Assembly (NCBI GenBank): GCA_030647485.1
Contig: JAUSJT010000003.1
Coordinates: 9,092 to 73,091 of the forward strand
Length of the DNA stretch: 64,000 nt
From: a bacterium
GTDB lineage: Bacteria; Patescibacteriota; Minisyncoccia; Minisyncoccales; UBA10102
Direction of reading: 5' to 3'
Each line of letters begins with the position of its first letter. Position 1 is the stretch's first letter. Below the pieces are notes generated by a model. The model was not told the DNA's origin. It saw only the letters and a program-made list of their open reading frames with translations, and did no database searches. This document shows positions 1 through 22,212 of the stretch, piece after piece. Position numbers and translations under genes: made by a program.

Positions 1-953
1 CACAGGCGCAAGAGATAACTACGACAACCGTGGCATTGCCCGCAGAAGACATGAAGGGCAAAATCATAGGGAAAGAAGGAAGAAACATCAGGGCATTGGA
101 GCGTGCTACCGGAGTTGAGGTTATTGTGGACGAAACCCCTGAAGCCGTGGTTATCTCTGGGTTTGACCCATTGCGAAGGCACATTGCAAAGGTTGCCCTA
201 GAGCGCCTTATCAAAGACGGCAGGATTCATCCTGCCCGTGTGGAAGAAGAGGTGGCAAAGGTGCAAGCGGAGATTGAGCAGCAGATGAAAGAGGCAGGAG
301 AAACTGCGGTGTTTGACGCTGGCATAGTGGGGCTAGACCCCAAGCTCATTCAGATTTTGGGGCGCTTGAAGTTTAGAACTTCGTATGGCCAGAACGTGCT
401 TATGCATTCTATTGAGGTTGCGCATTTGGCTTCTGCATTAGCTTCAGAGATCGGGGCCAACGCTACAATAGCCAAGAAGGCAGGTTTGTTCCATGACATT
501 GGGAAAGCACTGGACTATCAAGTGGAAGGATCTCATGTGGATATTGGCGTGAGAATTCTAGAGAAGTTCGGAGTTGAGCAGGCAGTGATTATTGGCATGA
601 AGTCTCACCACGAACAGTATCCGTATGAGTCCATTGAAGCAATTCTCGTTCAGGCAGCAGACGCAATTTCAGCTTCCAGGCCAGGGGCAAGAAAGGATTC
701 CCTGGAGAATTATCTAAAGCGCATTGGAGAATTGGAAAACGTAGCCAATTCCTTTGAAGGCGTGGAAAAGACCTATGCCATTCAGGCAGGAAGAGAAATA
801 CGGGTGTTTGTGAAACCCGAGGTTATTTCAGACCTACAGGCGCAGACACTTGCTAAAGACATTGCAAACCGTATTGAAGAAGATCTGCGCTATCCTGGAG
901 AGATCAAGGTCACTCTTATCCGGGAGAATAGATTCGTAGAATTTGCACGCTAA
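1..953 (+). CDS. rny: Ribonuclease Y, C-terminal part (KH + HD domains); 5' end lies outside the window
   Basis: KH motif IGKEGRNIRALE and HD motif HSIEVAHLA...FHDIGK in the translation. The reading frame is already open at the window start. Confidence 0.85.
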   Translation, partial: QAQEITTTTVALPAEDMKGKIIGKEGRNIRALERATGVEVIVDETPEAVVISGFDPLRRHIAKVALERLIKDGRIHPARVEEEVAKVQAEIEQQMKEAGETAVFDAGIVGLDPKLIQILGRLKFRTSYGQNVLMHSIEVAHLASALASEIGANATIAKKAGLFHDIGKALDYQVEGSHVDIGVRILEKFGVEQAVIIGMKSHHEQYPYESIEAILVQAADAISASRPGARKDSLENYLKRIGELENVANSFEGVEKTYAIQAGREIRVFVKPEVISDLQAQTLAKDIANRIEEDLRYPGEIKVTLIRENRFVEFAR

Positions 954-960
954 AAGAAAG

Positions 961-996
961 CCGTCCTGAGTTTATCGAAGGACGGTTTTCTGTTTG
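961..996 (+). terminator. Rho-independent terminator after rny
   Basis: Hairpin ccgtcctgag...aggacgg followed by ttttctgttt. Confidence 0.7.
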
Positions 997-1067
997 AGCG
1001 GGTGAGGGGAATCGGACCCCTGGCTTTAGCTTGGAAAGCTAAGGTATTGCCATTATACGACACCCGC
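997..1067 (-). tRNA. tRNA-Gly(TCC)
   Basis: Manual cloverleaf: acceptor GCGGGTG/CACCCGC, anticodon loop TTTCCAA, T-loop GGTCCGATTCC, discriminator U. Confidence 0.85.
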
Positions 1068-1090
1068 ACTTCTGCCCTCTGGCCTCAGTG

Positions 1091-1161
1091 TCGGGGTACT
1101 CAGATTCGAACTGAGACTACATCCTCCCAAAGGATGCGTGCTGCCGTTGCACTATACCCCG
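1091..1161 (-). tRNA. tRNA-Pro(TGG)
   Basis: Manual cloverleaf: acceptor CGGGGTA/TACCCCG, D-arm GTGC-AACGGCA-GCAC, anticodon loop TTTGGGA, T-arm CTCAG-TTCGAAT-CTGAG. Confidence 0.85.
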
Positions 1162-1400
1162 AATTGTATGTTCGCCTTAGGCGAACCCCGGGGAGACCTT
1201 CGATATGCCGTCCTTCGGCAAGCTCAGGACATGGCATATTAAGGTAGGTCTCCCGCAAAGACTCAAGTAGTTGAGTCTTTGCCCCAAAGCACGTGTATCC
1301 CGATCCCGACTGCTGTCGCGGATCGTGGATCCTCGGTCACGATAGCAATCGGACCGGGACTGCCGGTATACGACACCCCGTTTTGCATCTTCTTGTGTAT
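1162..1400 (-). ncRNA. Structured ~240-nt region 5' of the tRNA-Pro/Gly pair. Candidate leader or unclassified ncRNA. It contains a duplicated tRNA-Gly 5' fragment.
   Basis: Several extended hairpins on the minus strand, including a perfect 12-bp one (GCAAAGACTCAA/TTGAGTCTTTGC) and a ~65-nt imperfect one (GGGAGACC...GGTCTCCC). The 12-mer GGGTGTCGTATA repeats the 5' end of tRNA-Gly. Confidence 0.3.
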
Positions 1401-1443
1401 CATTTTTGGTGACTCTGGTCAATGCGTATGATATAGTACATGA

Positions 1444-2436
1444 ATGGTGATTCGAGAGATTGTATCTGAGTTTAATATTATTGAACAAGCCAAGAAATAC
1501 GGCATTCCCTGGTGGCAGCATCCCCAGTTTCTGTTCTTGGTCTTAGGGTCTATCATCGCGTTTTCCAGCATCCTCTCGTATGTGTTAGGAAGGCGGTACA
1601 TTGAAGATCCCCAGGTAGTAGCTCTTCTCATCATTATCTTCACTGGGATTTCTCTTGTCGTGTCTTTTCTTATCACACGGAGCTTTGAACGGCTTGCCCA
1701 GGCAGCAAGAATCAAGTCAGAGTTCGTGAGTATTGTATCCCATCAGCTCCGTTCTCCCCTTTCAAACCTTGTGTGGGGGTTGGAGTTCTTAATGTCAGGC
1801 AGGGCAGGAGAGGTCAAAGAAGCCCAGCTAGAGTATTTCCAGATTTTGAAAGAAAACTCAAGTCGCATGCAAGAATTGGTGAACGACCTTCTTGTGGTGT
1901 CCCGCATTGACGAGGGAAGCCTACCCTGGGAGCAGCAAGAGTTTTCTTTTGAGGAATTGCTGAACACTGTTCTCGTAGAGTATGAGCCGTATATGAAGGC
2001 TTCCAATATTCAGTTCCAGGTGCAGGGGCAAAAGGATCTCCCGAGGGTTCTGGGAGATGCTTCCCAACTTCGCCATGTGATTTCCAATCTTTTGGAAAAC
2101 GCAGTACGATATTCCGGGAAAGAGCATGCGAGCGGGGTTCTGATACAAAAGAAAGAAAACAGGATTCAGATTCGCTATCAGAAAAAAGGGAAGAATCTAT
2201 TTTTTGAAATCACAGATAATGGAGTAGGAATCCCCAAGGAGGATCAGCGGTACATATTTCAGAAGTTCTTCCGTTCCTCCAATATCTTGAGGCACGAAAC
2301 CCAAGGGTCAGGCTTGGGCCTGTACATCGCCAAATCCATTATTGAACGGGGAAAGGGATCTATTGGGTTCCATTCCCAAGAACACGCAGGGTCGACATTT
2401 TGGTTTACTATGCCATGTAGAACACGTACGCAGTAA
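1444..2436 (+). CDS. Sensor histidine kinase (membrane; HisKA + HATPase_c)
   Basis: H-box SHQLRSPL, N-box NLLENAVRYS, G-boxes DNGVGI and GSGLGL, two N-terminal TM segments. Confidence 0.85.
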   Translation: MVIREIVSEFNIIEQAKKYGIPWWQHPQFLFLVLGSIIAFSSILSYVLGRRYIEDPQVVALLIIIFTGISLVVSFLITRSFERLAQAARIKSEFVSIVSHQLRSPLSNLVWGLEFLMSGRAGEVKEAQLEYFQILKENSSRMQELVNDLLVVSRIDEGSLPWEQQEFSFEELLNTVLVEYEPYMKASNIQFQVQGQKDLPRVLGDASQLRHVISNLLENAVRYSGKEHASGVLIQKKENRIQIRYQKKGKNLFFEITDNGVGIPKEDQRYIFQKFFRSSNILRHETQGSGLGLYIAKSIIERGKGSIGFHSQEHAGSTFWFTMPCRTRTQ

Positions 2437-2445
2437 CGCATTATT

Positions 2446-2808
2446 ATGAAAACTATTTTACTCATTGAAGACGAGTCTGCTCTCCAAAAAACCATTGGAG
2501 ACGCGTTGAGCCAGGAGGGATTCTCTATTGCTTCAGCGCTTGACGGAGAAACAGGATTACGACTTGCGAAAGAAAAGCGCCCAGACGTCATTCTTTTAGA
2601 CCTCATATTGCCCAAGGCAAACGGGTTTGATGTGTTAAAATCCCTCAAAGAGCAGGAAGAAACAAAGGACATTCCAGTTGTGGTGCTCACAAATCTAGAG
2701 AGCATGGAAGACATTCAAAAAGCCCTGGATCTGGGAGCCATGACCTATCTTGTGAAGTCAAACTACACGCTTGAAGAAGTCGTGGAAAAAGTGAAACAAG
2801 CATTATGA
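2446..2808 (+). CDS. Stand-alone response regulator receiver domain (CheY-like)
   Basis: Receiver signature LLIEDE...DVILLDLILP...VVLT...K in a 120-aa protein. Confidence 0.85.
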   Translation: MKTILLIEDESALQKTIGDALSQEGFSIASALDGETGLRLAKEKRPDVILLDLILPKANGFDVLKSLKEQEETKDIPVVVLTNLESMEDIQKALDLGAMTYLVKSNYTLEEVVEKVKQAL

Positions 2809-4559
2809 GGGTTGAAGACCAACAATTAATGGCGTTTCTGCTGGATGCGGGGCTCGTGGGCATGCAGGAATTGCGGGACGCAGAGAAAAAATCCAAGAAG
2901 CTGCAAAAGCGCTTGGCAGATGTGCTGGTTGCAGATAATCTCTTATCCCAAGAAGAGCTTATTAAAATGGAGGCGTACATTCTGGGCATTCCGTTTGTCA
3001 ATCTGGAAAAAGAGACCCTAGATCCCGAAGTGTTAAAAATAGTCCCAGAGCCGATTGCCAGGTCTCACAATATTGTGGCATTCCGGAAAAAGGGCCAGGA
3101 TTTGGAAGTTGCCATGCTGGATCCAGAAGACCTTGCCACCATCGATTTTATAAAAAAGAAGTCAGATTTAAAAATTCTCCCCCGGCTTACTACTCCTGCA
3201 AGTATGACTCAGGTGCTGCGTCAGTACTCCAAGACCCTGGAGGCAGAATTCGGAGACATTATCCAACAAGAGGTGGGAGGAATAAAGACTCGAAAGGAAA
3301 GCGACGGAACAGAAAAGAATGCGAAAGAAGAGCTTGAAAAGGCCGCAGAAGAGCTTCCTATCATACGAATAGTAGATACCCTGCTCAAGCACGCAATTCT
3401 GCAGCGTTCGTCCGATATTCACATTGAGCCCACGGAAAAAGAAGTGATTGTGCGCTATCGTATTGACGGAGTGCTCCGTGACGCTATGGTTCTTCCCAGG
3501 GCCGCTACCTCTGGTATTGTTGCAAGGATTAAGGTACTTTCAAATTTACAGCTTGATGAGCACCGCCTGCCTCAAGATGGGCGCTTTAAGGTAGAAACAG
3601 ATGAGTATAAATATTCTATCAGGGTTTCTATACTCCCCGTGTTTGACGGAGAAAAGATCGTTATGCGCTTGCTGGCTGAAACCGCAAAGGCGTTTACCCT
3701 AGAACAGATAGGGTTGCGGGGAGAGGCGCTAGAAGACGTGCAACGAGCATTGAAAAAACCAGTTGGCATGCTCTTGGTCACGGGTCCTACGGGGTCTGGG
3801 AAAACCACAACCTTGTATGCCATGATGGAGATACTTTCCACTCCCCAGGTGAATATCTCTACCGTAGAAGATCCCATAGAGTACCGCATGCCCAGGGTGA
3901 ACCAGACTCAGGTGAATCCTAAAATAGGGTTTACCTTTGCAACGGGATTGCGCTCTTTGGTGAGGCAGGACCCAGACATCCTTATGGTAGGAGAGATTCG
4001 AGACGAGGAAACCGCTTCCCTGGCTATAAACGCTGCTTTGACGGGACATCTTGTGCTTTCCACTTTGCATACCAATAGCGCGGCTGGCGCCATACCCCGC
4101 TTGATTGATATGGGAGCCGAACCGTTTCTCATTTCCTCAACGTTGAATGTCATAGTTGCCCAGCGTCTGATACGCCGTCTCTCTGAAGAAAAAGGTGCGT
4201 ATAATCTTTCTGACAAAGAAATCGCAGACCTCTCTTCATACTGCAACGTAGAGAAGGTCACAAGCATTCTGAAAGATGAGAAGCTCTTAAAGCCAAAACA
4301 AAACCTTGGAGATATTTCTTTCTGGCGGCCGAAAGCCACCAAGGAAAATCCTGACGGGTATAAGGGAAGGATGGGAATTTACGAAGTGCTGCCCGTGACA
4401 GAAACGATCAAGAACCTCATCATCCAGCGCACGGACGCAGACGCAATCGGAGAGCAAGCGCAGAAAGAAGGCATGAGAACCATGGTGGAAGACGGATTTA
4501 TAAAAGCTGCCCAAGGCATTACTTCCATTGAAGAGGTGCTCCGCGTCATCACTGAATGA
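2805..4559 (+). CDS. pilB: Type IV pilus assembly ATPase PilB/GspE (locus 1)
   Basis: Walker A GPTGSGKTTT, Asp box, His box, N-terminal GspII domain. Confidence 0.9.
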   Translation: MRVEDQQLMAFLLDAGLVGMQELRDAEKKSKKLQKRLADVLVADNLLSQEELIKMEAYILGIPFVNLEKETLDPEVLKIVPEPIARSHNIVAFRKKGQDLEVAMLDPEDLATIDFIKKKSDLKILPRLTTPASMTQVLRQYSKTLEAEFGDIIQQEVGGIKTRKESDGTEKNAKEELEKAAEELPIIRIVDTLLKHAILQRSSDIHIEPTEKEVIVRYRIDGVLRDAMVLPRAATSGIVARIKVLSNLQLDEHRLPQDGRFKVETDEYKYSIRVSILPVFDGEKIVMRLLAETAKAFTLEQIGLRGEALEDVQRALKKPVGMLLVTGPTGSGKTTTLYAMMEILSTPQVNISTVEDPIEYRMPRVNQTQVNPKIGFTFATGLRSLVRQDPDILMVGEIRDEETASLAINAALTGHLVLSTLHTNSAAGAIPRLIDMGAEPFLISSTLNVIVAQRLIRRLSEEKGAYNLSDKEIADLSSYCNVEKVTSILKDEKLLKPKQNLGDISFWRPKATKENPDGYKGRMGIYEVLPVTETIKNLIIQRTDADAIGEQAQKEGMRTMVEDGFIKAAQGITSIEEVLRVITE

Positions 4560-4603
4560 CGCGAAATCCGAAGCACGAAGCACGAAATCCGAAACAAATT
4601 CAA

Positions 4604-5935
4604 ATGGCTGAAATTCAAATCTCTCAAATAAATACGAGAATCAATCAGTCAAGAGTTCTTTATTTTGAGAGTAATATTATTGCATTGTTTAATGGTATTA
4701 AGGTTGATCCCTCATGGTCTTTTTCTGATAAAACAAGAAAAGACACGGCGTACATTACTCATGGTTATCATCGATACCCTGCAAAGTTTATTCCTCAAAT
4801 CGTTTCCCGCTTAGCTGATAAATATACAAGCGAGGGCGATTTAATTGTTGATCCATTCGGTGGGTGCGGGACAACACTTGTTGAATCAAAAGTAATGGGG
4901 CGGTTATCAGTGGGCGTTGATATAAACCCCGTTGCTGTGCTTATCACAAAAGCTAAAATTACGCCGCTTGACCCAGCAAAAATTGAAGAAGTATTTACAG
5001 CACTGGAAGAGAAATTAGGCAGTTATAGTAAGAATACAAAAGTGAAAGCTCCAGAACACGAACGGATTGATTATTGGTTTAAGCAGGAAGAAAAGAGGAA
5101 ACTTGCTTTCATCTTTGCCGAGATTTCAAAAATAAAAGATCGGGATGTGAAAGATTTCCTTTATTGCGGGTTTTCAAACATTCTAAAAAATTGCTCTATT
5201 TGGCTGCAGAAAAGCAACAAACCAACAAGGGATTTTGCGAAAAAGCCGTCTGACCCGATACCAACATTTTTCAGACAAGTAAAAATGATGATGAGGGGCA
5301 ACGCAAGATTTTATGAGTTGTTAAAGCAGAAAAATCACCTTGAAGTGCCAAGCCAAGTTTACTGTACCGACGCAAGGACGATTCCTGTCAAAAATAATTC
5401 TGTTAGCTTAATTGTTACTTCGCCGCCATATGTTACTTCCTACGAATACGCCGATTTGCACCAGCTCACCGCTCTGTGGTTAGAATACACAAAAGATTTA
5501 AGTGATTTTCGCAAGCGTTTTATTGGTACTTCTTATCACAACAAAAAAGATTTGACTCTCAATAGCACACTCGCAGAAAATATCAGAAAATACTTGCTAG
5601 AAAAGGACAAGAAAACCGCCGAGGAGGTTTCTACATATTTTAGCGAGATGAACCAAGTATTTATTGAAATGAAAAGAATGCTAAAAAAAGGTGGTAAAAC
5701 TTGTATTGTTATCGGTAATACGAGCCTGAAAGGCGTTGAGATACTCAATGCGGAAGTTTTTGCTGAACAATTGCAAAACTTGGGGTTAAAGATCGCCGAT
5801 ATTGTTAAAAGAGAAATACCATCAAAAAATTTACCGTCTGTTAGAGATGAAAAAACTGGCAAGTTTGCAAGTATAACCGACAAAAACAGAGTTTCTGCTT
5901 ATCCGACAGAATATATTTTAGTAATGGAAAAATAA
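4604..5935 (+). CDS. DNA methyltransferase (N6-adenine or N4-cytosine, alpha-like motif order). The ORF could start at 4556.
   Basis: Motif I DPFGGCGTT and motif IV TSPPY. The 4556-4603 extension is coded by the flanking repeat and looks non-native. Confidence 0.8.
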   Translation: MAEIQISQINTRINQSRVLYFESNIIALFNGIKVDPSWSFSDKTRKDTAYITHGYHRYPAKFIPQIVSRLADKYTSEGDLIVDPFGGCGTTLVESKVMGRLSVGVDINPVAVLITKAKITPLDPAKIEEVFTALEEKLGSYSKNTKVKAPEHERIDYWFKQEEKRKLAFIFAEISKIKDRDVKDFLYCGFSNILKNCSIWLQKSNKPTRDFAKKPSDPIPTFFRQVKMMMRGNARFYELLKQKNHLEVPSQVYCTDARTIPVKNNSVSLIVTSPPYVTSYEYADLHQLTALWLEYTKDLSDFRKRFIGTSYHNKKDLTLNSTLAENIRKYLLEKDKKTAEEVSTYFSEMNQVFIEMKRMLKKGGKTCIVIGNTSLKGVEILNAEVFAEQLQNLGLKIADIVKREIPSKNLPSVRDEKTGKFASITDKNRVSAYPTEYILVMEK

Positions 5936-5939
5936 AACT

Positions 5940-6608
5940 ATGACAATTAAAGATCTTATTAAAATTTACGAGACGAAAAAGAAAAAACACGGTGTACAAG
6001 CATACCGACATATTTCAAATGTTCTAAAAGAAGCAAAGGAACAACACGAAAAAGATTTTAAGGGAGATGACCACGAGCAATCTTGGCGAGCGTTCAAAGG
6101 TAAAAACCTGGAGAAGTTGATTGAATATATTATCACGGATGAAGTTAATGCTTTAGGCTTGCAAGTGGTAAATGGGAATATTCTTGAAAGAACAAATGGA
6201 TCAAATCTTTCAAAGGAGTTGAGTTTGGTAAAAAGAAATTTGATTATTGATTATGGCGAATTTGGTTCACATTTGCCAGATGTTGACTTGATTATTTATG
6301 ATCCCAAAACCAGCAAGGTTGTCGCTGTATTGTCTAGTAAAGTCACCCTGCGGGAAAGAATCGCCCAAACTGGTTATTGGAAAATCAAACTTGCTTCTGA
6401 TGAGGCGACAAAACACATTAAAGTTTATTTTGTAACCCCGGACGAGGATGGAACACTTACAATCAAAACCCCAACGAAGAAAGGACGTGCAATTGTAGAG
6501 GTGGATACGGATGGTAGTTATGTTCTAAGTGAGACGGACATTGAAGAAAGCGACAAGGTAAAAATGTTTGATAAGTTTATTGATGATCTGAAAAAACTTT
6601 TAAAGTAA
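5940..6608 (+). CDS. Putative type II restriction endonuclease (PD-(D/E)xK-like)
   Basis: Sits between two methyltransferases with short gaps. DVDLIIYD...VLSSKVTLRER resembles a PD-(D/E)xK core. Assigned from context. Confidence 0.4.
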   Translation: MTIKDLIKIYETKKKKHGVQAYRHISNVLKEAKEQHEKDFKGDDHEQSWRAFKGKNLEKLIEYIITDEVNALGLQVVNGNILERTNGSNLSKELSLVKRNLIIDYGEFGSHLPDVDLIIYDPKTSKVVAVLSSKVTLRERIAQTGYWKIKLASDEATKHIKVYFVTPDEDGTLTIKTPTKKGRAIVEVDTDGSYVLSETDIEESDKVKMFDKFIDDLKKLLK

Positions 6609-6620
6609 TTTTAAAAACAT

Positions 6621-8132
6621 ATGAAAAAACAAGATATGCAAAAATACGCAAAAGCATTAAAAAGAGGTCATTTAGCAAGCCTTTCAGTTGATGATATTGT
6701 TGAACTCATAAAAAGAGCGGATGGGAAATGTTATTTGTGTGAGGAAAAAATAGACCTTGACAATATCGGGAAGATTGATGGTGACAAGAAAAATTCAAAC
6801 GGTCCTCTTAGTGTTGAAAACTTATATCTGACACATAAAAAGTGTAATATTCAAAAAAGCAACGAACCCGTTTCGATAGTTAAAGCTAAATTAGCTTTCT
6901 CTAGGTTTTACGAAAAGAAAGATTCTGTTTCATTTAATGACTTTTTAGATGAGTATGTTCCGAATAATAGAAAAACCGTAAGATTTAAAATCACCAACGA
7001 TATCGCATATTTAAAGTTTGGAGAAGACGAAAAAAATACACCTATATTTACTGACCCTGCTACTAAAATACAGTATTTCTTTTATGAATTACCGATGGAT
7101 TACATATATAATGATGATGAGGTGCAACCAAGACCAATCGATAAATCTCACCTGTTTAAAATGATGGCCGATTTTCAAATCCATCCCGTACATGAGCCAT
7201 CAGATTGTCGTATTGTTGATAATAGTAGAATAGATGGTAATTATAAAGAAGCTAAGTTACTACAGTTTGATGGTCAACATAAAAGTGCTGCTCAGATATT
7301 AATAGGTCGGACGAAGTTACAATTTAAAATCTACATTGCACCATCTATAAAATTGATAAGAGAATTGGTTATTATCATTCAGAATGAAATTAAGAAAAAA
7401 GCTGTTTTGGAATCAATTGTGATAAAACGCATGAGCGCATCTTATATGGACAGATGGAATGAGTATATTGAATCGCCAGGAGAACATTCAGAGGCAGGCC
7501 TAATTGAATCTTTACCTAATCAAGAGAAAAAACTAGCTAAAAAAGAGCTAATGAATGCAGTTTATAGTAATATAATAGACAATAAAGAATTAGAGTTAAA
7601 GGAATTTGTTACCACGGGGCAAACTAGAAGTGAAAAAAATAGACCCATTTCTATTAATTTACTAAAGCAAATAATAAATAATTTTGTTTATAGTAAACCT
7701 AACGATGTTCCTGTTGGGGAAAAAGACTCAAGAGAAATTGAAGCAGAAAACACCACTAAGTTTTTAAACATTATCTCAGAGGCAATTTTTGGGGAACTTA
7801 CCCCAATCCAAAGGAATCGCCAAGATTTACCAGAAAAGATATTGAGGATTTGGAAATCTGGTTCTGTAAAATTTTGGGCAAATATATTAAAGAACCTAAT
7901 CAGTCACAGGTTGAATATTATTGCTGAAGATGACAAAGAAAGAATTTTTCAGCGTAAATTGACTGCAAATGATTGGGACGGAATCGGGAAAACCGTAAAT
8001 AGACTTTTTTCTCATTCGGTTTGGGGTAAAATTGATCAAAATTTAGACAAAATACTAAATTCAAACGATCTTAAGGCTGCAACAAGAGAGTTGGCTAAAA
8101 AAGGATTGGACACCGATTTCTTGATTAAATAA
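6621..8132 (+). CDS. 503-aa protein with N-terminal degenerate HNH-like motif; putative nuclease or specificity component of the R-M island
   Basis: CYLCEEK...IDGDKKNSNG...NLYLTHKKCNIQK matches the HNH CxxC...DH...N...CN pattern, but the catalytic His is replaced (DGD). Tightly packed in the operon. Confidence 0.4.
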   Translation: MKKQDMQKYAKALKRGHLASLSVDDIVELIKRADGKCYLCEEKIDLDNIGKIDGDKKNSNGPLSVENLYLTHKKCNIQKSNEPVSIVKAKLAFSRFYEKKDSVSFNDFLDEYVPNNRKTVRFKITNDIAYLKFGEDEKNTPIFTDPATKIQYFFYELPMDYIYNDDEVQPRPIDKSHLFKMMADFQIHPVHEPSDCRIVDNSRIDGNYKEAKLLQFDGQHKSAAQILIGRTKLQFKIYIAPSIKLIRELVIIIQNEIKKKAVLESIVIKRMSASYMDRWNEYIESPGEHSEAGLIESLPNQEKKLAKKELMNAVYSNIIDNKELELKEFVTTGQTRSEKNRPISINLLKQIINNFVYSKPNDVPVGEKDSREIEAENTTKFLNIISEAIFGELTPIQRNRQDLPEKILRIWKSGSVKFWANILKNLISHRLNIIAEDDKERIFQRKLTANDWDGIGKTVNRLFSHSVWGKIDQNLDKILNSNDLKAATRELAKKGLDTDFLIK

Positions 8133-8801
8133 ATGCAGATTGAATCAACAACGCTTTGGGATTTTCCGAGGCAGAATTATGGAGACAAGCCACACGGAGA
8201 TAATAAATATAGCGGCGTTACGCCGGCTTTTGTTATTTGGAATTTACTCCAACGATATACAAAAGAAGGCGATTTGGTAGTTGACCCAATGTGCGGGAGT
8301 GGAACTACTATTGATGTAGCAAACGAACTGAACCGAAAAGTGATTGGCTATGACTTAAACATTGTTCGCCCCGATGTAATCAAGAATGACTCTCGGAAGA
8401 TCCCGCTTCAAGACAATAGCATTGATTTCGTCTTTATTGATTCCCCTTATTCAGACAACATCAAGTATTCTGATGACGAAAAGTGTATTGGAAAAATATC
8501 TTGTGAGAAAACAGAGTTTTACGATGAATTAGAAAAAGTCGCCTCTGAAATCGCTCGGATTTTGAAACCTGAAAAAGCGATGGGTTGGGTTATTGCCGAT
8601 CAATGGATCAAAAGGAAATTCACTCCCGTTGCATTTTTGCTTTGGCAGAGATTAGAAAAGTATTTTAAGCCGATTGATATTGTGTGTCTTAGTCGACACA
8701 ACCAGACATCGAACACGCAAATTTGGCATAATAGAGCAAGACAGTTTAATTTTTATTTGAGAGGTTTCAAATATTTGTTTATTATGAGAAAATCAACGTA
8801 G
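8133..8801 (+). CDS. Small DNA methyltransferase (N4/N6 family)
   Basis: Motif I DPMCGSGTT and motif IV FIDSPY. Confidence 0.8.
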   Translation: MQIESTTLWDFPRQNYGDKPHGDNKYSGVTPAFVIWNLLQRYTKEGDLVVDPMCGSGTTIDVANELNRKVIGYDLNIVRPDVIKNDSRKIPLQDNSIDFVFIDSPYSDNIKYSDDEKCIGKISCEKTEFYDELEKVASEIARILKPEKAMGWVIADQWIKRKFTPVAFLLWQRLEKYFKPIDIVCLSRHNQTSNTQIWHNRARQFNFYLRGFKYLFIMRKST

Positions 8802-8882
8802 AATCCGATTTAAGTAATTTTTGAATTTGGATATTAAATATTGTTTCGAATTTCGATATTCGAATTTCGGATTTAAATACTG
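8801..8882. repeat. AT-rich repeat block at the right edge of the R-M island (gaatttcg/ttcggattt units), inverted relative to cgaaatccgaa repeats at 4562-4596
   Basis: Read directly: gaatttcgatattcgaatttcggattt here versus cgaaatccgaagcacgaagcacgaaatccgaaac at the left edge. Confidence 0.5.
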
Positions 8883-10106
8883 ATGCCCACGTACTTTTAT
8901 ACCGCAGCAACTATTCAGGGGGAGAAAGTCACGGGAAGTGAGAACGCAAAAAGCGAGCGGGACCTTGCGCGCTCTTTGCATGAAAAGGGGTATGTCCTTT
9001 TGAAGGTAGCTTCCGGAGAGCACGCAGATGCCAAGCGTACATTTGTACAAATGCTTGAGGGCCTGTTTTCCGTCCCCCTCTCAGAAAAACTGCTGTTTAT
9101 GAGAAATCTGAAGGTTATGGTGCAGGCCGGAGTGCCGCTCCCTAAAGCTCTTGAAATTCTTTCTTTGCAAACAGGATCAAAGCAATTAAAGAGTGCGATA
9201 GACGACATGCGAGAGAAGGTGATGCAGGGAGAAATGCTGTCTGTCGCTATGTCTCGGCATCCCGCAGTATTCTCTGATTTGTTCATAAATATGATCAGGG
9301 CGGGAGAGGAGTCCGGGACTATGGAGGGAGTCCTTTCTCACTTAACCCTGCAGTTAGAACGCGAGCATGATTTGAGGTCTAAGATCCAGAGCGCCTTGAT
9401 GTATCCTAGCGTTGTGGTGGTTGCGATGATCGGGGTTGGCACCATCATGTTGGTGAGCGTAGTTCCCAATCTGGCGAAAACCTTTAAGGAATTAGGAGTG
9501 GAATTGCCTCCGACTACCCGCTTTGTGATAGGTCTGGGGGAGTTTCTCTCGCATCAATGGTACATAGCTCTTCTTGTATTCTTAGCGGCTGGGTTTGCGC
9601 TGTATCGGGCCTTGAAAAGCAAGAAGGGAAAGTGGATTGTCGACGGACTCGTGCTGCGGCTTCCCCTATTTTCCTCCCTTATCCAGAAGATCAACTCCGC
9701 CTTTTTTGCTCGTACCCTTAGTTCTCTTATAGGGGCTGGTATCCCTATCGTGAAATCTCTTGAGATCACGAGCACGGTGTTGAACAACGGGCGTTTTCGA
9801 AAGGCCCTGGAGGATGCGGCAGAACAGGTGCGCAAGGGATCAAAGCTTTCCCAAAGCTTGAAGAGTTCTGGTAAGCTATATCCCTTGGTTGTACTCCAGA
9901 TGCTGGAAGTCGGAGAAGAAACAGGGAAAACAGGAGAAATCTTGGCCAAGCTTGCCGATTTCTTTGAGGAGGAGGTGAACGCCATCACCAAGAATTTCGC
10001 CTCTGTTATTGAGCCCGTGCTCATGCTGTTCATGGGGGCCATGGTTGGATTCTTTGCGGTATCCATGATCCAGCCCATGTACAGCGTGCTGGGGTCTATC
10101 AAATGA
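8883..10106 (+). CDS. pilC: Type IV pilus inner-membrane platform protein PilC/GspF (locus 1)
   Basis: Two T2SF repeats, three TM segments, 407 aa. Confidence 0.9.
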   Translation: MPTYFYTAATIQGEKVTGSENAKSERDLARSLHEKGYVLLKVASGEHADAKRTFVQMLEGLFSVPLSEKLLFMRNLKVMVQAGVPLPKALEILSLQTGSKQLKSAIDDMREKVMQGEMLSVAMSRHPAVFSDLFINMIRAGEESGTMEGVLSHLTLQLEREHDLRSKIQSALMYPSVVVVAMIGVGTIMLVSVVPNLAKTFKELGVELPPTTRFVIGLGEFLSHQWYIALLVFLAAGFALYRALKSKKGKWIVDGLVLRLPLFSSLIQKINSAFFARTLSSLIGAGIPIVKSLEITSTVLNNGRFRKALEDAAEQVRKGSKLSQSLKSSGKLYPLVVLQMLEVGEETGKTGEILAKLADFFEEEVNAITKNFASVIEPVLMLFMGAMVGFFAVSMIQPMYSVLGSIK

Positions 10107-10204: not shown

Positions 10205-10462
10205 ATGACCACAAAAATACAAAAATGGGGGAATAGTTTGGCAGTACGCCTGCCAAAGAAACTCATAACCCGTCTTGGATTGAGAGCGGGAAGTGAAGTT
10301 ATGGTAGACGAGCGCGAGCAGACCGTGCTGATAAAACAGGTGGTTTTGCCAGTAAAGACAATGGGGAAAAGAGGATGGAAGCAGTTTTGCATACCAACGA
10401 ACAACAAAAAAGAGAATATAAGTGGGAAGATAGATGAGATTCTCTATGGCAAGTCTTATTGA
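10205..10462 (+). CDS. AbrB/MazE/SpoVT-family antitoxin
   Basis: KWGNSLAVRLPKKL swapped-hairpin motif. Confidence 0.8.
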   Translation: MTTKIQKWGNSLAVRLPKKLITRLGLRAGSEVMVDEREQTVLIKQVVLPVKTMGKRGWKQFCIPTNNKKENISGKIDEILYGKSY

Positions 10463-10820
10463 TAGTTCAGTATGGGTGGCCCTGTTCCTTGATTTTGATA
10501 CTCAGCATACAAAAGCGGAGCGTCTTTTTTCAAAACTCAAGGGGAAAATCTATCTTCCGTACTGTGTGCTTAATGAAGTAGCAACGGTTCTTGCGTACAA
10601 ACACTCAAAAAAACAAGCCAACCAGTTTTTGAGTTTTATCGAGGAAAACCACGATATTAACCTTCTGGAAGACAGCTCCACCGAAGAGGTATCATTTTAC
10701 AAGTCGCAAAGCGCAAGAATCTCTTTTAGCGATGCCGCGCTTCTCTTGTTCGCGAGAAAATTAAGTGTACGTTTTATTACGTTTGATAAACAACTTGAGC
10801 GTCTCGCACGAGAGATTTGA
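10434..10820 (+). CDS. PIN-domain toxin (VapC-like)
   Basis: LIDSSVWVALF...D at the N-terminus and FSDAALLLFARKL...FITFD at the C-terminus. Overlaps the antitoxin. Confidence 0.75.
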   Translation: MRFSMASLIDSSVWVALFLDFDTQHTKAERLFSKLKGKIYLPYCVLNEVATVLAYKHSKKQANQFLSFIEENHDINLLEDSSTEEVSFYKSQSARISFSDAALLLFARKLSVRFITFDKQLERLAREI

Positions 10821-20916: not shown

Positions 20917-21254
20917 ATCCTCGTATCCCAAAGGTTAATCAACTTCTGCAAGAAGAGTTAGGAGAGATCCTTTTAAGGGAGCTCGATCTTCCAGACGGAG
21001 TGTTGGTTACGATTACTCGCGTGGATGCTTCGGGCAACTTGCAAGAAGCTAGGGTATATATTAGTGTAATGCCAGAGGCAAGGAGTGAAGAGGTAATGCT
21101 GGGCCTTGAGAGAGATATTTTTAGTATTCAGCAAGCGTTGAACAAGAGATTGCGCATGCGGCCAGTGCCCCGCATTAAATGGACTGTTGAAACAAAAACT
21201 TCTGAAGCCCAGAGGATAGAAGAGTTATTGGAAAAGACGAAGGAAGAAAAATAG
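20913..21254 (+). CDS. rbfA: Ribosome-binding factor A
   Basis: Size, position after infB, KH-like fold sequence. Confidence 0.8.
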   Translation: MNPRIPKVNQLLQEELGEILLRELDLPDGVLVTITRVDASGNLQEARVYISVMPEARSEEVMLGLERDIFSIQQALNKRLRMRPVPRIKWTVETKTSEAQRIEELLEKTKEEK

Positions 21255-21256
21255 CT

Positions 21257-21328
21257 GGCCGCGTAGTCAAGTGGTAAGACAAGGGACTGCAAATCCCTTA
21301 TACGGGAGTTCGATTCTCCCCGCGGCCT
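21257..21328 (+). tRNA. tRNA-Cys(GCA)
   Basis: Anticodon loop CTGCAAA, discriminator U. Confidence 0.85.
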
Positions 21329-21372
21329 CTAAAACTTAATGAGATTAAGTTTAACTTAGTTAAACTAAGTTT

Positions 21373-21455
21373 GCCGCGGTGATGGAAAGGTAGACATGAG
21401 GGGCTTAAAACCCCTTGCTCGAAAGGGCGTGTGGGTTCGATTCCCGCCCGCGGCA
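21373..21455 (+). tRNA. tRNA-Leu(TAA)
   Basis: Anticodon loop CTTAAAA, long variable arm. Confidence 0.85.
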
Positions 21456-21471
21456 CAACTATAGATACAAT

Positions 21472-22212
21472 ATGAAGAGGCATATCGACAAAGATTTTTT
21501 TAAGATCTGGACCGGAGAGATGAGCTATGTTCTAGGGTATATTGTTGCGGATGGCTGTATTTATAAAAGGAAAGATAGAAAGGATAGTTATATTTTAAAC
21601 ATCACATCTAAGGATCGAGACCACTTAGTGAGCATAAACAAAAGTTTACATTCTGACTACCCAATAAGCATAAAATATAATTCTCAGCGGATGCCCCATT
21701 CTCAAATCCAAATCTCCAACTTAGAGATTTGCAAAGATCTCATGAATTTGGGGATATTACCCAGAAAAACAATTCATCTAGAGCCCATTAGTGCCCCAGA
21801 TAAATACTTTTTCGATTTTGTACGTGGATTTTTTGATGGCGACGGTAGCGTTTATATCTATATAGTAAATGGAGTCTCACAAATTAAGGTAAATTTTGTC
21901 AGTACTAGCTATTCTTTTCTAGATAATTTTAATTCACATCTTTGCAGGGATCTGGGTATTTCTCAAAAATCTATACACAGATTATTACCAAAAGATGATC
22001 GAAGACTCATCAAATATTCTATTGATTTTTATATTAGTGATTGTGAAAAATTAGCAAAGTATCTCTACGAGAATGATCCAGCCCTCTATCTTACTCGTAA
22101 ACGAAGAATCTTTGAAGATTGGAAGTCAAAACCGCGTCGCCAGTATATTAAGAAAAATTATCCTTCAAAAGTTGGTTGGCATCTGAATCAACAAGTTTCT
22201 GTACTTAATTAA
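21472..22212 (+). CDS. Double-motif LAGLIDADG homing endonuclease
   Basis: LGYIVADGC and VRGFFDGDGSV motifs. Confidence 0.8.
   Translation: MKRHIDKDFFKIWTGEMSYVLGYIVADGCIYKRKDRKDSYILNITSKDRDHLVSINKSLHSDYPISIKYNSQRMPHSQIQISNLEICKDLMNLGILPRKTIHLEPISAPDKYFFDFVRGFFDGDGSVYIYIVNGVSQIKVNFVSTSYSFLDNFNSHLCRDLGISQKSIHRLLPKDDRRLIKYSIDFYISDCEKLAKYLYENDPALYLTRKRRIFEDWKSKPRRQYIKKNYPSKVGWHLNQQVSVLN

What the first reader, a model, noticed from the sequence alone, without database searches (positions are those of the whole stretch)
4556..8882. Low-GC restriction-modification island inserted between pilB and pilC
A ~4.3-kb, visibly AT-rich block holds four tightly packed genes. These are an alpha-type methyltransferase (DPFGGCGTT...SPPY), a 222-aa PD-(D/E)xK-like protein, a 503-aa protein whose N-terminal HNH-like motif has the catalytic His replaced (IDGDKK), and a second small methyltransferase (DPMCGSGTT...DSPY). 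The block splits what is normally a contiguous pilB-pilC pair. It is bounded by short inverted repeats, cgaaatccgaa at 4562-4596 and ttcggattt/gaatttcg at 8801-8882. Two methyltransferases with two nuclease-like proteins, one carrying a degenerate HNH, is not a textbook Type II layout. It could be a Type IIS-like or otherwise atypical defence module.
Basis: partly seen in the sequence, partly recalled or inferred. Interest (0 to 1): 0.7.

Follow-up and report, generated by a model that had tools for sequence, protein, structure and literature searches.

The report
Restriction-modification cassette lodged between pilB and pilC
A foreign, AT-rich restriction-modification gene cassette that is common in tiny CPR bacteria has landed between two pilus genes, inside a pre-existing hairpin-like repeat, and it carries one extra, undescribed gene whose nuclease domain looks inactivated.

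Summary
Four co-oriented genes (4604/4556-8801) form the lowest-GC block of the window (0.32-0.38 vs 0.46), between pilB and pilC. These two genes are adjacent in 56 of 64 related genomes, and none of those carries these genes.

The interpretation needs revision in three ways.
1. The conserved unit is a three-gene cassette: M1 (alpha-class N4/N6 methyltransferase), R (BsaWI/CCGG-family PD..K endonuclease) and M2 (small methyltransferase). It is widespread in Patescibacteria, with about 4000 R clusters, many 88-94% identical, in unrelated chromosomal contexts. It is Type IIP-like, not Type IIS.
2. ORF3 (503 aa) is an extra gene inserted exactly in the R-M2 spacer. It belongs to a family absent from Pfam, NCBIfam and PADLOC, with 273 clusters. 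Its parts are an N-terminal HNH, a ParB/sulfiredoxin fold with an invariant FDGQHK motif, and a helical tail. Relatives with an intact HNH are solitary genes. Only the cassette-associated subclade has lost the catalytic His, yet it is under purifying selection (dN/dS about 0.1).
3. The border inverted repeat is real, but it is not the cassette's own. It is the two arms of a dispersed palindromic element that normally encloses a 23S_rRNA_IVP gene. That element occupies the pilB-pilC junction in several relatives with other cargo.

Overall this is an ordinary R-M insertion with two moderately novel side features.

The parts
2805..4559 (+). pilB (GspE/PulE-type type IV pilus assembly ATPase); upstream flank of the insertion
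   Evidence: PF00437 T2SSE 3.6e-126 and MshEN 2e-15. NCBI MDO8474146.1. 80 relatives at 61-76% identity.
4560..4637 (+). Left arm of a dispersed palindromic '23S_rRNA_IVP-type' element. Its inverted-repeat core is 4564-4597, and it supplies the ATG at 4604 used by M1.
   Evidence: Inverted repeat. Exact 24-nt core in 59 metagenome contigs, and a 21-nt core in 6 viral contigs. Nearly identical sequence lies right after the pilB stop in L046/L118, L098/L121/L156, L134 and L150. Homology to those copies ends at about 4620-4637.
4604..5935 (+). M1: alpha-class N4/N6 amino-DNA methyltransferase (443 aa; the ORF is also open from 4556)
   Evidence: PF01555 3.4e-21 and PADLOC MTase_II 7e-62. Motif I at aa 83 and SPPY at aa 273, about 185 aa apart. 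81% aa identity to M1 of L011/L015, dN about 0.115. The 443-aa form is MDO8474147.1.
5940..6608 (+). R: BsaWI/CCGG-family PD..K Type II restriction endonuclease (222 aa)
   Evidence: PF18643 RE_BsaWI 3.1e-34. D114, K134 and R138-E139-R140 have the same spacing as BsaWI D145, K165 and R169-D170-R171. About 4000 homolog clusters, with the listed top 120 at 88-94% identity. NCBI names it 'BsaWI family type II restriction enzyme', MDO8474148.1. dN 0.037 with saturated dS.
6621..8132 (+). ORF3 (503 aa): HNH-like domain lacking the catalytic His (about aa 35-85), a ParB/sulfiredoxin-fold domain with QPR (169-171) and FDGQHK (216-221), and a helical C-terminal region (about aa 264-503). It is an insertion into the R-M2 spacer.
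8133..8801 (+). M2: small (222 aa) N4/N6 amino-DNA methyltransferase. Motifs I and IV are only 50 aa apart, so it looks like the M1 core without the inserted target-recognition region.
   Evidence: PF01555 2.7e-22 and PADLOC MTase_II 2e-30. Motif positions. M1 vs M2: 31% identity over the motif-I region, 3e-12. 84-87% aa identity to M2 of L011/L015. MDO8474150.1.
8815..8882 (+). Right arm of the palindromic IVP-type element (inverted-repeat core 8841-8874), ending at the pilC start codon
   Evidence: Inverted repeat. The 22-mer TTAAATATTGTTTCGAATTTCG is identical to the right arms of L122, L134 and L150, which enclose IVP genes. 85-88% identity to the right arms of L149 and L108 from about 8815-8820. 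The joined arms fold at -41 kcal/mol, against -22.9 +/- 3.4 for shuffles.
8883..10106 (+). pilC (T2SS F-family platform protein); downstream flank
   Evidence: PF00482 T2SSF 1.7e-58. MDO8474151.1. pilC directly follows pilB in 56 of 64 relatives in which it was found.

Best explanation
The block is a composite of three layers.

(1) Resident element. In this lineage a long palindromic, low-complexity element sits between pilB and pilC. In relatives it encloses a 23S_rRNA_IVP (four-helix-bundle) gene.

(2) The R-M cassette. In the window, the element's interior is occupied by a horizontally acquired three-gene Type II restriction-modification cassette that is very widespread in Patescibacteria. 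It consists of M1 (alpha-class amino-methyltransferase with an SPPY motif), R (a BsaWI/CCGG-family PD..K endonuclease) and M2 (a small methyltransferase lacking the inserted recognition region). Inferred: R cuts unmodified DNA at a CCGG-core palindrome, which it reads with its R-E-R motif. M1 and M2 protect host DNA by N4-cytosine and/or N6-adenine methylation of that site. The cassette is co-oriented with the pil genes and has no convincing internal terminator. M1 uses the start codon in the element's left arm, so the cassette is probably transcribed together with pilB-pilC.

(3) ORF3. This gene was inserted precisely into the 9-32-bp R-M2 spacer. It derives from a family of solitary HNH + ParB/Srx (FDGQHK) + helical proteins. 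By architecture, these resemble NTP-dependent stand-alone nucleases such as GmrSD, with the domain order reversed. In the cassette-borne subclade the HNH general-base His is lost, while the ParB-like motif and the rest stay under purifying selection. So here ORF3 most likely acts as a non-cleaving, nucleotide- and DNA-binding accessory or regulator of the cassette, not as a second nuclease.

Shown: gene identities, insertion boundaries, synteny, composition, family distribution, loss of the His, and selection. Inferred: recognition site, methylated base, co-transcription, and the role of ORF3.
For: Insertion:
- pilB and pilC are adjacent (gap -1 to 215 bp) in 56 of 64 relatives, and none has the cassette genes there.
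- The cassette genes have GC 0.32-0.38, against 0.48-0.50 for the flanking genes.

Three-gene unit:
- M1-R-M2 is contiguous in all 8 places examined, which fall into three different contexts: Nramp|BipA, LexA|BipA, and recombinase-rich mobile regions with Rep, DUF87 or other genes.
- The cassette is also low-GC there (0.34-0.37), against 0.51-0.52 for the flanking host genes Nramp and BipA in L011.
- Window DNA aligns to it over 4672-6611 and 8136-8791 at 76-81%.

R identity:
- PF18643 at 3e-34.
- The D114-K134 and K-x3-RER spacing matches BsaWI.
- The best, though weak, fold hit is AgeI.

ORF3:
- Exact insertion into the spacer.
- The 71% homolog is flanked by the R C-terminus and the M2 N-terminus. 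The 60% homolog lies directly after an M2 gene.
- HNH-intact relatives are solitary, with housekeeping or mobile-element neighbours.
- The His is lost only in P0001-P0003 and four scattered others; DGQHK is present in 207 of 211.
- dN 0.175 against dS about 1.8.

Border arms:
- The arms belong to a dispersed element.
- The IVP gene is confirmed (1.3e-12; 1e-23 in L079).
- The same arms flank other cargo at pilB-pilC in L046/L118, L156, L134 and L150.
- The cassette lacks these arms in other genomes.
Against: - No direct evidence for the recognition site or the methylated base. CCGG is only mildly depleted in the window (107 observed vs 137 expected, z = -2.6, similar to several other palindromes).
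- The residue aligned with BsaWI's second catalytic acid D175 is T144.
- The ORF2 structure model was poor (pLDDT 59).
- Why the cassette keeps two methyltransferases is unexplained.
- ORF3's role is inferred only from domain content and context. A different residue might substitute for the lost His.
- ORF3 has no sequence-level link to GmrSD, DndB or ParB families.
- How the cassette entered the palindromic element is unknown. No target-site duplication or recombinase was seen.
Confidence: 0.72

Rival explanations
1. All four genes form one integrated, atypical (e.g. Type IIS-like or two-nuclease) defence module. ORF3 would be an obligatory subunit.
For: - The genes are tightly packed. ORF3 starts 12 nt after the R stop codon, and its TAA abuts the M2 ATG.
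- The ORF3 subclade is found with this cassette in three independent contigs.
- ORF3 is under purifying selection.
Against: - All 8 places examined for other cassettes (three different contexts) have M1-R-M2 without ORF3.
- There are about 4000 R clusters but only three ORF3-subclade sequences.
- R is a single-domain CCGG-family enzyme.
- ORF3's relatives are solitary.
- The ORF3 homolog is at a different position (after M2) and split in L006.
Confidence: 0.1
2. ORF3 is a selfish, homing-endonuclease-like HNH gene that invaded the R-M2 spacer and is now decaying. It has no function for the cassette.
For: - Its HNH is closest in sequence to the group II intron maturase En domain and to Cas9/IscB HNH domains.
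- The insertion is precise and intergenic.
- It has the lowest GC of the block (0.322).
- Family members appear as single genes between housekeeping genes and on mobilisable elements.
- The catalytic His is lost.
- One relative is split.
Against: - dN/dS is about 0.1 across 29% amino-acid divergence, with an intact reading frame.
- The same His-less motif is kept in the 71% homolog at the same position.
- FDGQHK and about 400 non-HNH residues are conserved family-wide.
- No intron or intein context is present.
Confidence: 0.15
3. The inverted repeats are terminal repeats of a transposon-like element that carries the R-M genes and moved into pilB-pilC as a unit.
For: - The arms are highly significant.
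- They occur in 59 or more dispersed contigs and in some viral contigs.
- They flank variable cargo, including an IS200-like Y1 transposase in L046.
Against: - The cassette's borders in L011, L014 and L015 lack the arms.
- The same junction carries the same arms with IVP, NOV_C or IS200-like cargo in relatives with 58-75% PilB identity. About 22 copies are empty hairpins. So the arms were most likely already at this site.
- No transposase lies inside the window's copy.
Confidence: 0.12
4. ORF3 is still an active, stand-alone (Type IV-like or NTP-dependent) nuclease that adds a second, independent restriction activity to the island.
For: - HNH + ParB/Srx NTPase-like architecture, analogous to GmrSD/BrxU/SspE.
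- The HNH fold, the structural Asn67 and the C-terminal Asn are kept.
- ParB/Srx domains themselves can have nuclease activity (PMC4619093).
Against: - The general-base His, kept in 177 of 184 relatives, is replaced, and there is a 3-residue deletion.
- PF01844 scores only E = 0.07 in the window protein, against down to 6e-11 in relatives.
Confidence: 0.15

Closest known systems
BsaWI / AgeI-type CCGG-family Type IIP restriction-modification systems
   Same: - R hits the RE_BsaWI Pfam family strongly.
- It shares the PD..K spacing and a continuous K-x3-R-(D/E)-R CCGG-reading motif.
- It has adjacent amino-methyltransferase genes.
- NCBI already names it 'BsaWI family'.
   Different: - It is shorter (222 vs 272 aa) and too divergent for sequence hits to the BsaWI or AgeI chains.
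- The position aligned with the second acidic residue (D175) is Thr.
- It has two methyltransferases (one large alpha-class, one minimal) instead of one.
- Its specificity is untested.
GmrSD / BrxU / SspE family (DUF262 ParB-like NTPase + DUF1524 HNH-like nuclease; Type IV restriction)
   Same: - The ORF3 family combines a ParB/Srx-fold domain carrying a DGQ(H/Q)(R/K) motif with a His-Me/HNH nuclease domain and a long helical region.
- Members are solitary genes, often on mobile or variable DNA.
   Different: - The domain order is reversed (HNH first).
- There are no PF03235, PF07510 or PF14072 hits.
- The HNH is of the intron-maturase/Cas9 type.
- In the window copy the HNH His is missing.
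DndB (DGQHR-domain regulator of the dnd phosphorothioation operon)
   Same: - A ParB/Srx-superfamily protein with a DGQH-type motif, encoded inside a DNA-modification operon.
- It offers a precedent for a regulatory, non-nuclease role (from general knowledge of DndB; not tested here).
   Different: - No hit to PF14072/TIGR03187.
- The motif is DGQHK with QPR rather than DGQHR with QR.
- ORF3 has an extra HNH domain and a different C-terminal region.
23S rRNA intervening sequences encoding 23S_rRNA_IVP (four-helix-bundle) proteins
   Same: The border arms belong to long-stem palindromic elements whose loop commonly encodes a PF05635 protein. This is the same arrangement as an IVS stem plus ORF. 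The family is known from rRNA insertions in CPR bacteria (PMC11270868).
   Different: - Here the element lies between protein-coding genes (pilB and pilC), not in rRNA.
- Its arms are low-complexity (CGAAATCCGAA-type) repeats.
- In the window the IVP gene is replaced by an R-M cassette.

Membership tests
CCGG-family / BsaWI-family Type II restriction endonuclease (ORF2) | Match to the family profile (PF18643) above the curated cut-off | tested here: met
   117.6 bits against a cut-off of 26.2, E = 3.1e-34, profile positions 2-105 of 105
CCGG-family / BsaWI-family Type II restriction endonuclease (ORF2) | Catalytic PD...K core and a continuous R-(D/E)R CCGG-recognition motif 4 residues after the Lys | tested here: met
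   P113-D114, K134 and R138-E139-R140. The D-to-K distance is 20 and the motif is K-x3-RER, as in BsaWI D145, K165 and R169-D170-R171. These residues are invariant in 20 homologs.
CCGG-family / BsaWI-family Type II restriction endonuclease (ORF2) | Second acidic catalytic residue (BsaWI D175 / NgoMIV E201) | tested here: inconclusive
   By spacing, the equivalent position is T144. The structure model was too poor to locate an alternative (pLDDT 59, residues 133-207 below 50).
CCGG-family / BsaWI-family Type II restriction endonuclease (ORF2) | Fold similarity to solved CCGG-family enzymes | tested here: inconclusive
   The top Foldseek hit is AgeI (5dwb), but with E = 0.29 and probability 0.44, from a low-confidence model. 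There are no sequence hits to PDB chains.
CCGG-family / BsaWI-family Type II restriction endonuclease (ORF2) | Cleavage at a CCGG-containing site; cognate methylation protects | not testable with these tools
   Site-avoidance in 64 kb is uninformative (CCGG 107 observed vs 137 expected). This needs methylome data or enzyme assays.
N4/N6 amino-DNA methyltransferases (M1, M2) | AdoMet motif I (FxGxG) and catalytic motif IV ((S/D/N)PP(Y/F)); PF01555 match | tested here: met
   PF01555 at 3.4e-21 and 2.7e-22. M1 has DPFGGCG and SPPY. M2 has DPMCGSG and DSPY, a variant with Ser in place of the first Pro.
Type IIS restriction-modification system | Asymmetric site with a separate cleavage domain in the endonuclease; two methyltransferases, one per strand | tested here: not met
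   R is a 222-aa single-domain CCGG-family enzyme with no additional cleavage domain. Two methyltransferases are present, but strand specificity could not be tested.
GmrSD-type Type IV restriction enzymes (ORF3) | N-terminal DUF262 (PF03235) and C-terminal DUF1524 (PF07510), in that order | tested here: not met
DGQHR / DndB domain family (ORF3) | DGQHR pentapeptide, QR pair and FxxxN motif; PF14072/TIGR03187 match | tested here: not met
   The motif is FDGQHK (207 of 211 members) and QPR. There is no PF14072 or NCBIfam DGQHR hit at E <= 1. A profile-profile test against DndB could not be run.
ParB/sulfiredoxin fold (ORF3 middle domain) | Structural similarity to ParB/Srx domains | tested here: met
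HNH (beta-beta-alpha-Me) nucleases (ORF3 N-terminal domain) | HNH fold plus the general-base His | tested here: not met
Palindromic 23S_rRNA_IVP-type element (border repeats) | Two complementary low-complexity arms enclosing a PF05635 gene | tested here: inconclusive
   The arms are present and match other copies almost exactly. The enclosed gene here is the R-M cassette, not an IVP gene; PF05635 genes are found in 12 other copies. This element type is defined here, not by a published definition.

The most novel reading that the evidence does not exclude
Two readings remain open.

(a) The His-less ORF3 subclade is a domesticated, nuclease-dead HNH-ParB/Srx nucleotide-binding protein that has become a functional accessory of a Type II R-M operon. 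It could act as a DndB-like regulator, or as a ParB-like clamp or targeting partner for R or the recognition-domain-less M2. That would be a new kind of R-M accessory. Its HNH-intact, solitary relatives (about 270 clusters) would then be an undescribed family of stand-alone NTP-dependent defence nucleases with reversed GmrSD-like architecture.

(b) The palindromic IVP-type elements act as reusable 'cargo slots' or vehicles that place defence and mobile genes at conserved operon junctions in CPR and other bacteria.
Probability: 0.2. Interest if true: 0.7.

Novelty: new variant of a known kind. Interest (0 to 1): 0.42.

Why it matters
The R-M cassette itself is ordinary and already annotated. 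Three points could still matter.

- The same M1-R-M2 unit is kept at about 90% protein identity despite saturated synonymous divergence across many Patescibacteria lineages. Restriction enzymes usually evolve fast, so this suggests a core defence or DNA-uptake filter in organisms that depend on pilus-mediated DNA uptake.
- ORF3 points to a protein family of about 270 clusters (HNH + ParB/Srx FDGQHK + helical) that is absent from Pfam, NCBIfam and PADLOC. It is a candidate stand-alone defence nuclease family, with one branch recruited into an R-M operon after losing its catalytic His.
- The border repeats reveal a dispersed palindromic element family that recurrently occupies the pilB-pilC junction and can hold very different cargo. 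This bears on how foreign genes enter streamlined CPR genomes without disrupting operons.

Tried and rejected
- The AFDB50 fold library was unavailable, so there are no annotated AlphaFold neighbours for ORF3.
- ORF2: no PDB sequence hits with the single sequence or with a shallow family profile. The AF2 model from a 20-sequence alignment at about 90% identity was poor (pLDDT 59), so the AgeI top hit (E = 0.29) is only suggestive.
- Palindrome-avoidance analysis of the 60 kb of host DNA did not single out CCGG or WCCGGW.
- tblastn of ORF3, of an HNH-intact relative (P0057) and of R against the annotated collections found nothing: ORF3 and P0057 against phages and plasmids, R against plasmids only.
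- Rfam found no family for the border element or for anything in the island.
- The promoter and terminator scans were at background level.
- A 2026 preprint on CPR methyltransferases does not mention this cassette.

Rejected ideas:
- The arms are the cassette's own terminal repeats. Other cassette copies lack them.
- The arms are halves of a conserved native pilB-pilC hairpin present in all relatives. The spacers are not conserved, and the arms occur at many unrelated loci.
- ORF3 is a GmrSD or DndB family member.
- ORF3 is a pseudogene (dN/dS about 0.1).

Full report
**1. What is there**

Window 4556-8882 holds four co-oriented ORFs.
- ORF1/M1 runs from 4556 or, more likely, ATG 4604 to 5935.
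- ORF2/R is 5940-6608.
- ORF3 is 6621-8132.
- ORF4/M2 is 8133-8801.

They lie between pilB (2805-4559; T2SSE 4e-126) and pilC (8883-10106; T2SSF 2e-58). The block is the lowest-GC stretch of the 64-kb window. GC is M1 0.371, R 0.360, ORF3 0.322 and M2 0.383, against pilB 0.481, pilC 0.498 and the window 0.457. The NCBI record of this MAG names the six genes in turn:
- GspE/PulE family protein
- DNA methyltransferase (the 443-aa form starting at 4604)
- BsaWI family type II restriction enzyme
- hypothetical protein Q7S62_01185
- DNA methyltransferase
- T2SS F family protein

**2. It is an insertion**

A scan of one genome per species returned 80 loci with PilB relatives (61-76% identity), all Patescibacteria-type MAGs.
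- A pilC homologue was detected downstream in 64 of them. In 56 of these the gap is -1 to 215 bp, and mostly under 40 bp.
- None of the 80 carries M1, R or ORF3. The only hit to any of the four, a weak 25% M2-like match in L093, lies on the opposite strand several kb upstream of pilB.
- The metagenomic contig L121 is collinear with the window from rny through the histidine kinase, response regulator and pilB, then diverges exactly after pilB.

**3. The conserved unit has three genes, not four**

ORF2 hits PF18643 RE_BsaWI at 3e-34. It has about 4000 homolog clusters, and the top 120 are 88-94% identical. They come from Kaiserbacteria, Nomurabacteria, Taylorbacteria and other Patescibacteria.

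In all eight places examined, the gene order is M1 (423-435 aa), R (222 aa) and M2 (223-225 aa), with spacers of about 3-10 nt. These places fall into three different contexts: Nramp|BipA, LexA|BipA, and recombinase-rich mobile regions that carry Rep, DUF87 or other genes.

The cassette is low-GC there too (0.34-0.37), while the flanking host genes Nramp and BipA in L011 are 0.51-0.52.

Window DNA aligns to these cassettes over 4672-6611 and 8136-8791 at 76-81% identity. The 1.5 kb in between, which is exactly ORF3, corresponds to a 9-32-bp spacer elsewhere.

Synonymous sites between cassette copies are saturated, while proteins stay 81-92% identical. dN is 0.037 for R, about 0.115 for M1 and 0.08-0.115 for M2. 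The cassette is therefore old and strongly constrained, not a recent sweep.

**4. What the cassette most likely does**

*The endonuclease.* BsaWI (W/CCGGW) uses E92, D145, K165 and D175 for catalysis. It reads CCGG with a continuous R169-D170-R171 motif (PMC4652773). ORF2 has P113-D114, K134 and R138-E139-R140, with identical D-to-K (20 residues) and K-x3-R spacing. All of these are invariant in 20 homologs. The position equivalent to D175 is T144. The AF2 model was too poor to find a substitute, and its best hit, AgeI (A/CCGGT), is weak. I therefore assign R to the CCGG family and infer a CCGG-core palindromic target. The exact site is unknown.

*The methyltransferases.*
- M1 has motif I at aa 83 and SPPY at aa 273, which is the alpha-class order with about 185 residues between them.
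- M2 has motif I at aa 51 and DSPY at aa 103.
- M2 aligns to M1 on both sides of M1's insert (31% identity, 3e-12). It looks like the M1 core without the target-recognition insert.
- PDB sequence hits are limited to the AdoMet-binding region of N4C and N6A enzymes, so the target base is not resolved.

Why two methyltransferases are conserved is unexplained. Possibilities are different bases in the same site, a heteromeric enzyme, or a DpnA-like role on incoming single-stranded DNA. None was testable here. Nothing supports a Type IIS arrangement.

**5. ORF3**

*Structure and family.* No Pfam, NCBIfam or PADLOC model covers more than the N-terminal roughly 60 residues, which give weak HNH and PtuB hits. 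A word-indexed search found 69 homologs of about 490-540 aa. An exhaustive profile search found 273 clusters (50% identity) at E <= 1e-30. The alignment shows an N-terminal canonical HNH ('C..C...DHIxP...N...CN/HH'). It also has an invariant QPR and an invariant F-D-G-Q-H-K. An AF2 model (pLDDT 89) has three parts:
- a ParB/sulfiredoxin fold (PadC 11.6, Srx 10.5, KorB 9.3)
- a helical C-terminal region

The family profile reaches PDB sequences only through the HNH domain (group II intron maturase 1.6e-11, Cas9, IscB, Gme HNH, McrA).

*Comparison with known families.* The composition (ParB/Srx with a DGQ-type motif, plus HNH, plus a helical region) is that of GmrSD-type Type IV enzymes (PMC4619093). 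The domain order is reversed, however, and there is no PF03235, PF07510 or PF14072 match. So ORF3 may work like GmrSD, but it is not a member.

*Genomic context.* HNH-intact members are solitary. They sit next to housekeeping genes or on an integrase/Mob element, with no DNA methyltransferase partner.

*The window copy.* The window protein and its two closest relatives read 'DGDK' where 177 of 184 relatives have the general-base His. DGQHK is kept in 207 of 211. These three proteins are exactly the cassette-associated ones.
- P0002 (71% identity) is flanked by the C-terminus of R and the N-terminus of M2.
- P0003 (60%) lies directly after an M2 gene and is split into two ORFs.
- Window ORF3 against P0002 gives dN 0.175 and dS about 1.8.

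I conclude that ORF3 is a secondary but maintained acquisition by a minor lineage of the cassette, and that it has probably lost HNH cleavage. Its retained ParB-like nucleotide-binding motif suggests an accessory or regulatory role. This last step is inference (about 0.3 confidence). A decaying selfish HNH gene and a still-active nuclease remain rivals.

**6. The inverted repeats**

The arms 4564-4597 and 8841-8874 are real and highly non-random. They are not the cassette's ends, because other cassette copies lack them.

The 24-nt core GAAATCCGAAACAAATTCAAATGG occurs exactly in 59 metagenomic contigs. A 21-nt version occurs in 6 viral contigs. These give 58 distinct contexts.
- About 22 are 'empty' long hairpins, with the partner arm 54-141 nt away and folding at -45 to -60 kcal/mol.
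- In 12 contexts the ATG inside CAAATGG starts a roughly 120-aa gene that is PF05635 23S_rRNA_IVP (1.3e-12), with the partner arm about 400-990 nt away.

The window's right-arm 22-mer is identical to that of three IVP-bearing copies.

The same element sits directly after the pilB stop codon in several other lineages, with different cargo:

| Locus | PilB identity | Cargo |
|---|---|---|
| L098/L119/L121/L155/L156 | 75% | IVP + a NOV_C PD-(D/E)xK-like ORF |
| L134 | 68% | IVP |
| L150 | 58% | IVP |
| L046/L118 | 72% | IS200-like Y1 transposase with its own hairpins + a P-II-like ORF |

L079 has another IVP gene at this junction, with differently sequenced low-complexity arms.

Homology to the element ends at about 4620-4637 and restarts at about 8815-8820. 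Cassette homology spans 4672-8791. So the R-M cassette fills the interior of a resident IVP-type element, and M1's annotated start codon (4604, 'MAEIQ...') comes from the element's arm. No Rfam family matches the element, and I found no description of it in the searched literature.

**7. Expression**

All genes share the pil strand. No convincing terminator lies inside the block, and the promoter-like hits are at background level. Read-through from pilB to pilC is therefore plausible, but it is untested.

**8. Verdict**

The core finding is a known kind of system, a CCGG-family Type II R-M cassette that is already annotated, inserted at an unusual but explicable place. Two elements are moderately novel:
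- the undescribed HNH-ParB/Srx family, with a His-less branch embedded in the R-M operon
- the palindromic IVP-type element acting as a recurrent cargo site at pilB-pilC

Noticed in passing
window 10205-10820: A MazE-type antitoxin (PF04014, 1e-10) and a PIN-domain toxin (PF01850, 9e-13) overlap by 29 nt. They sit between pilC and the pseudopilin genes, in a mild GC dip (0.42-0.45). This is a second small insertion in the pil operon.
   Followed up: partly
L098-L162 (e.g. L125 675-870, L147, L129, L148): A dispersed family of long low-complexity palindromic elements, with left arm ...AAATCCGAAGCACGAAATCCGAAACAAATTCAAATGG... It occurs as empty hairpins or around 23S_rRNA_IVP genes, also in GC-rich contigs and in six viral contigs. 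It is not in Rfam.
   Followed up: partly
L046 5985-7243 (= L118): At the same pilB-pilC junction and within the same arms lie an IS200-like Y1 transposase (PF01797, 3e-9) flanked by its own hairpins (GTGCTTAACCAGGTTAAGCAC) and a 108-aa P-II-like ORF.
   Followed up: partly
L156 9097-10011: A possible ancestral-like state of the locus: pilB, left arm, IVP gene (121 aa), a 140-aa NOV_C (PD-(D/E)xK-type, 4.7e-9) ORF, right arm, pilC.
   Followed up: partly
L011, L014, L015 vs window 5940-6608: The restriction enzyme R is unusually conserved: 90-92% amino-acid identity with saturated synonymous divergence (dN 0.04-0.06). It is more constrained than either methyltransferase, which is atypical for restriction enzymes.
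   Followed up: partly
L109 (arms about 4.2 kb apart; original coordinates about 500-4680): Another copy of the palindromic element, in a GC-rich contig, has arms about 4.16 kb apart. The cargo size is similar to the window's. The contents were not identified.
   Followed up: no
L006 2014-3513: Downstream of the split ORF3 homolog that follows an M2 gene lies a 499-aa GHKL ATPase (HATPase_c_3, 1.4e-8). This suggests a defence-island context.
   Followed up: no
L083 9825-12485; L066 9747-11813; L085 and L082 pilB-pilC spacers: Other interruptions of the pilB-pilC junction in relatives: an unknown 572-aa ORF plus a Bro-N protein (L083), and an inverted recG (L066). Differently sequenced low-complexity hairpins also occur in otherwise short spacers.
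   Followed up: partly
window 996-1161 and throughout: There are 20 tRNA genes in 64 kb, several in clusters. A second GC dip at 21001-22000 (0.399) coincides with tRNA-Cys and tRNA-Leu.
   Followed up: no
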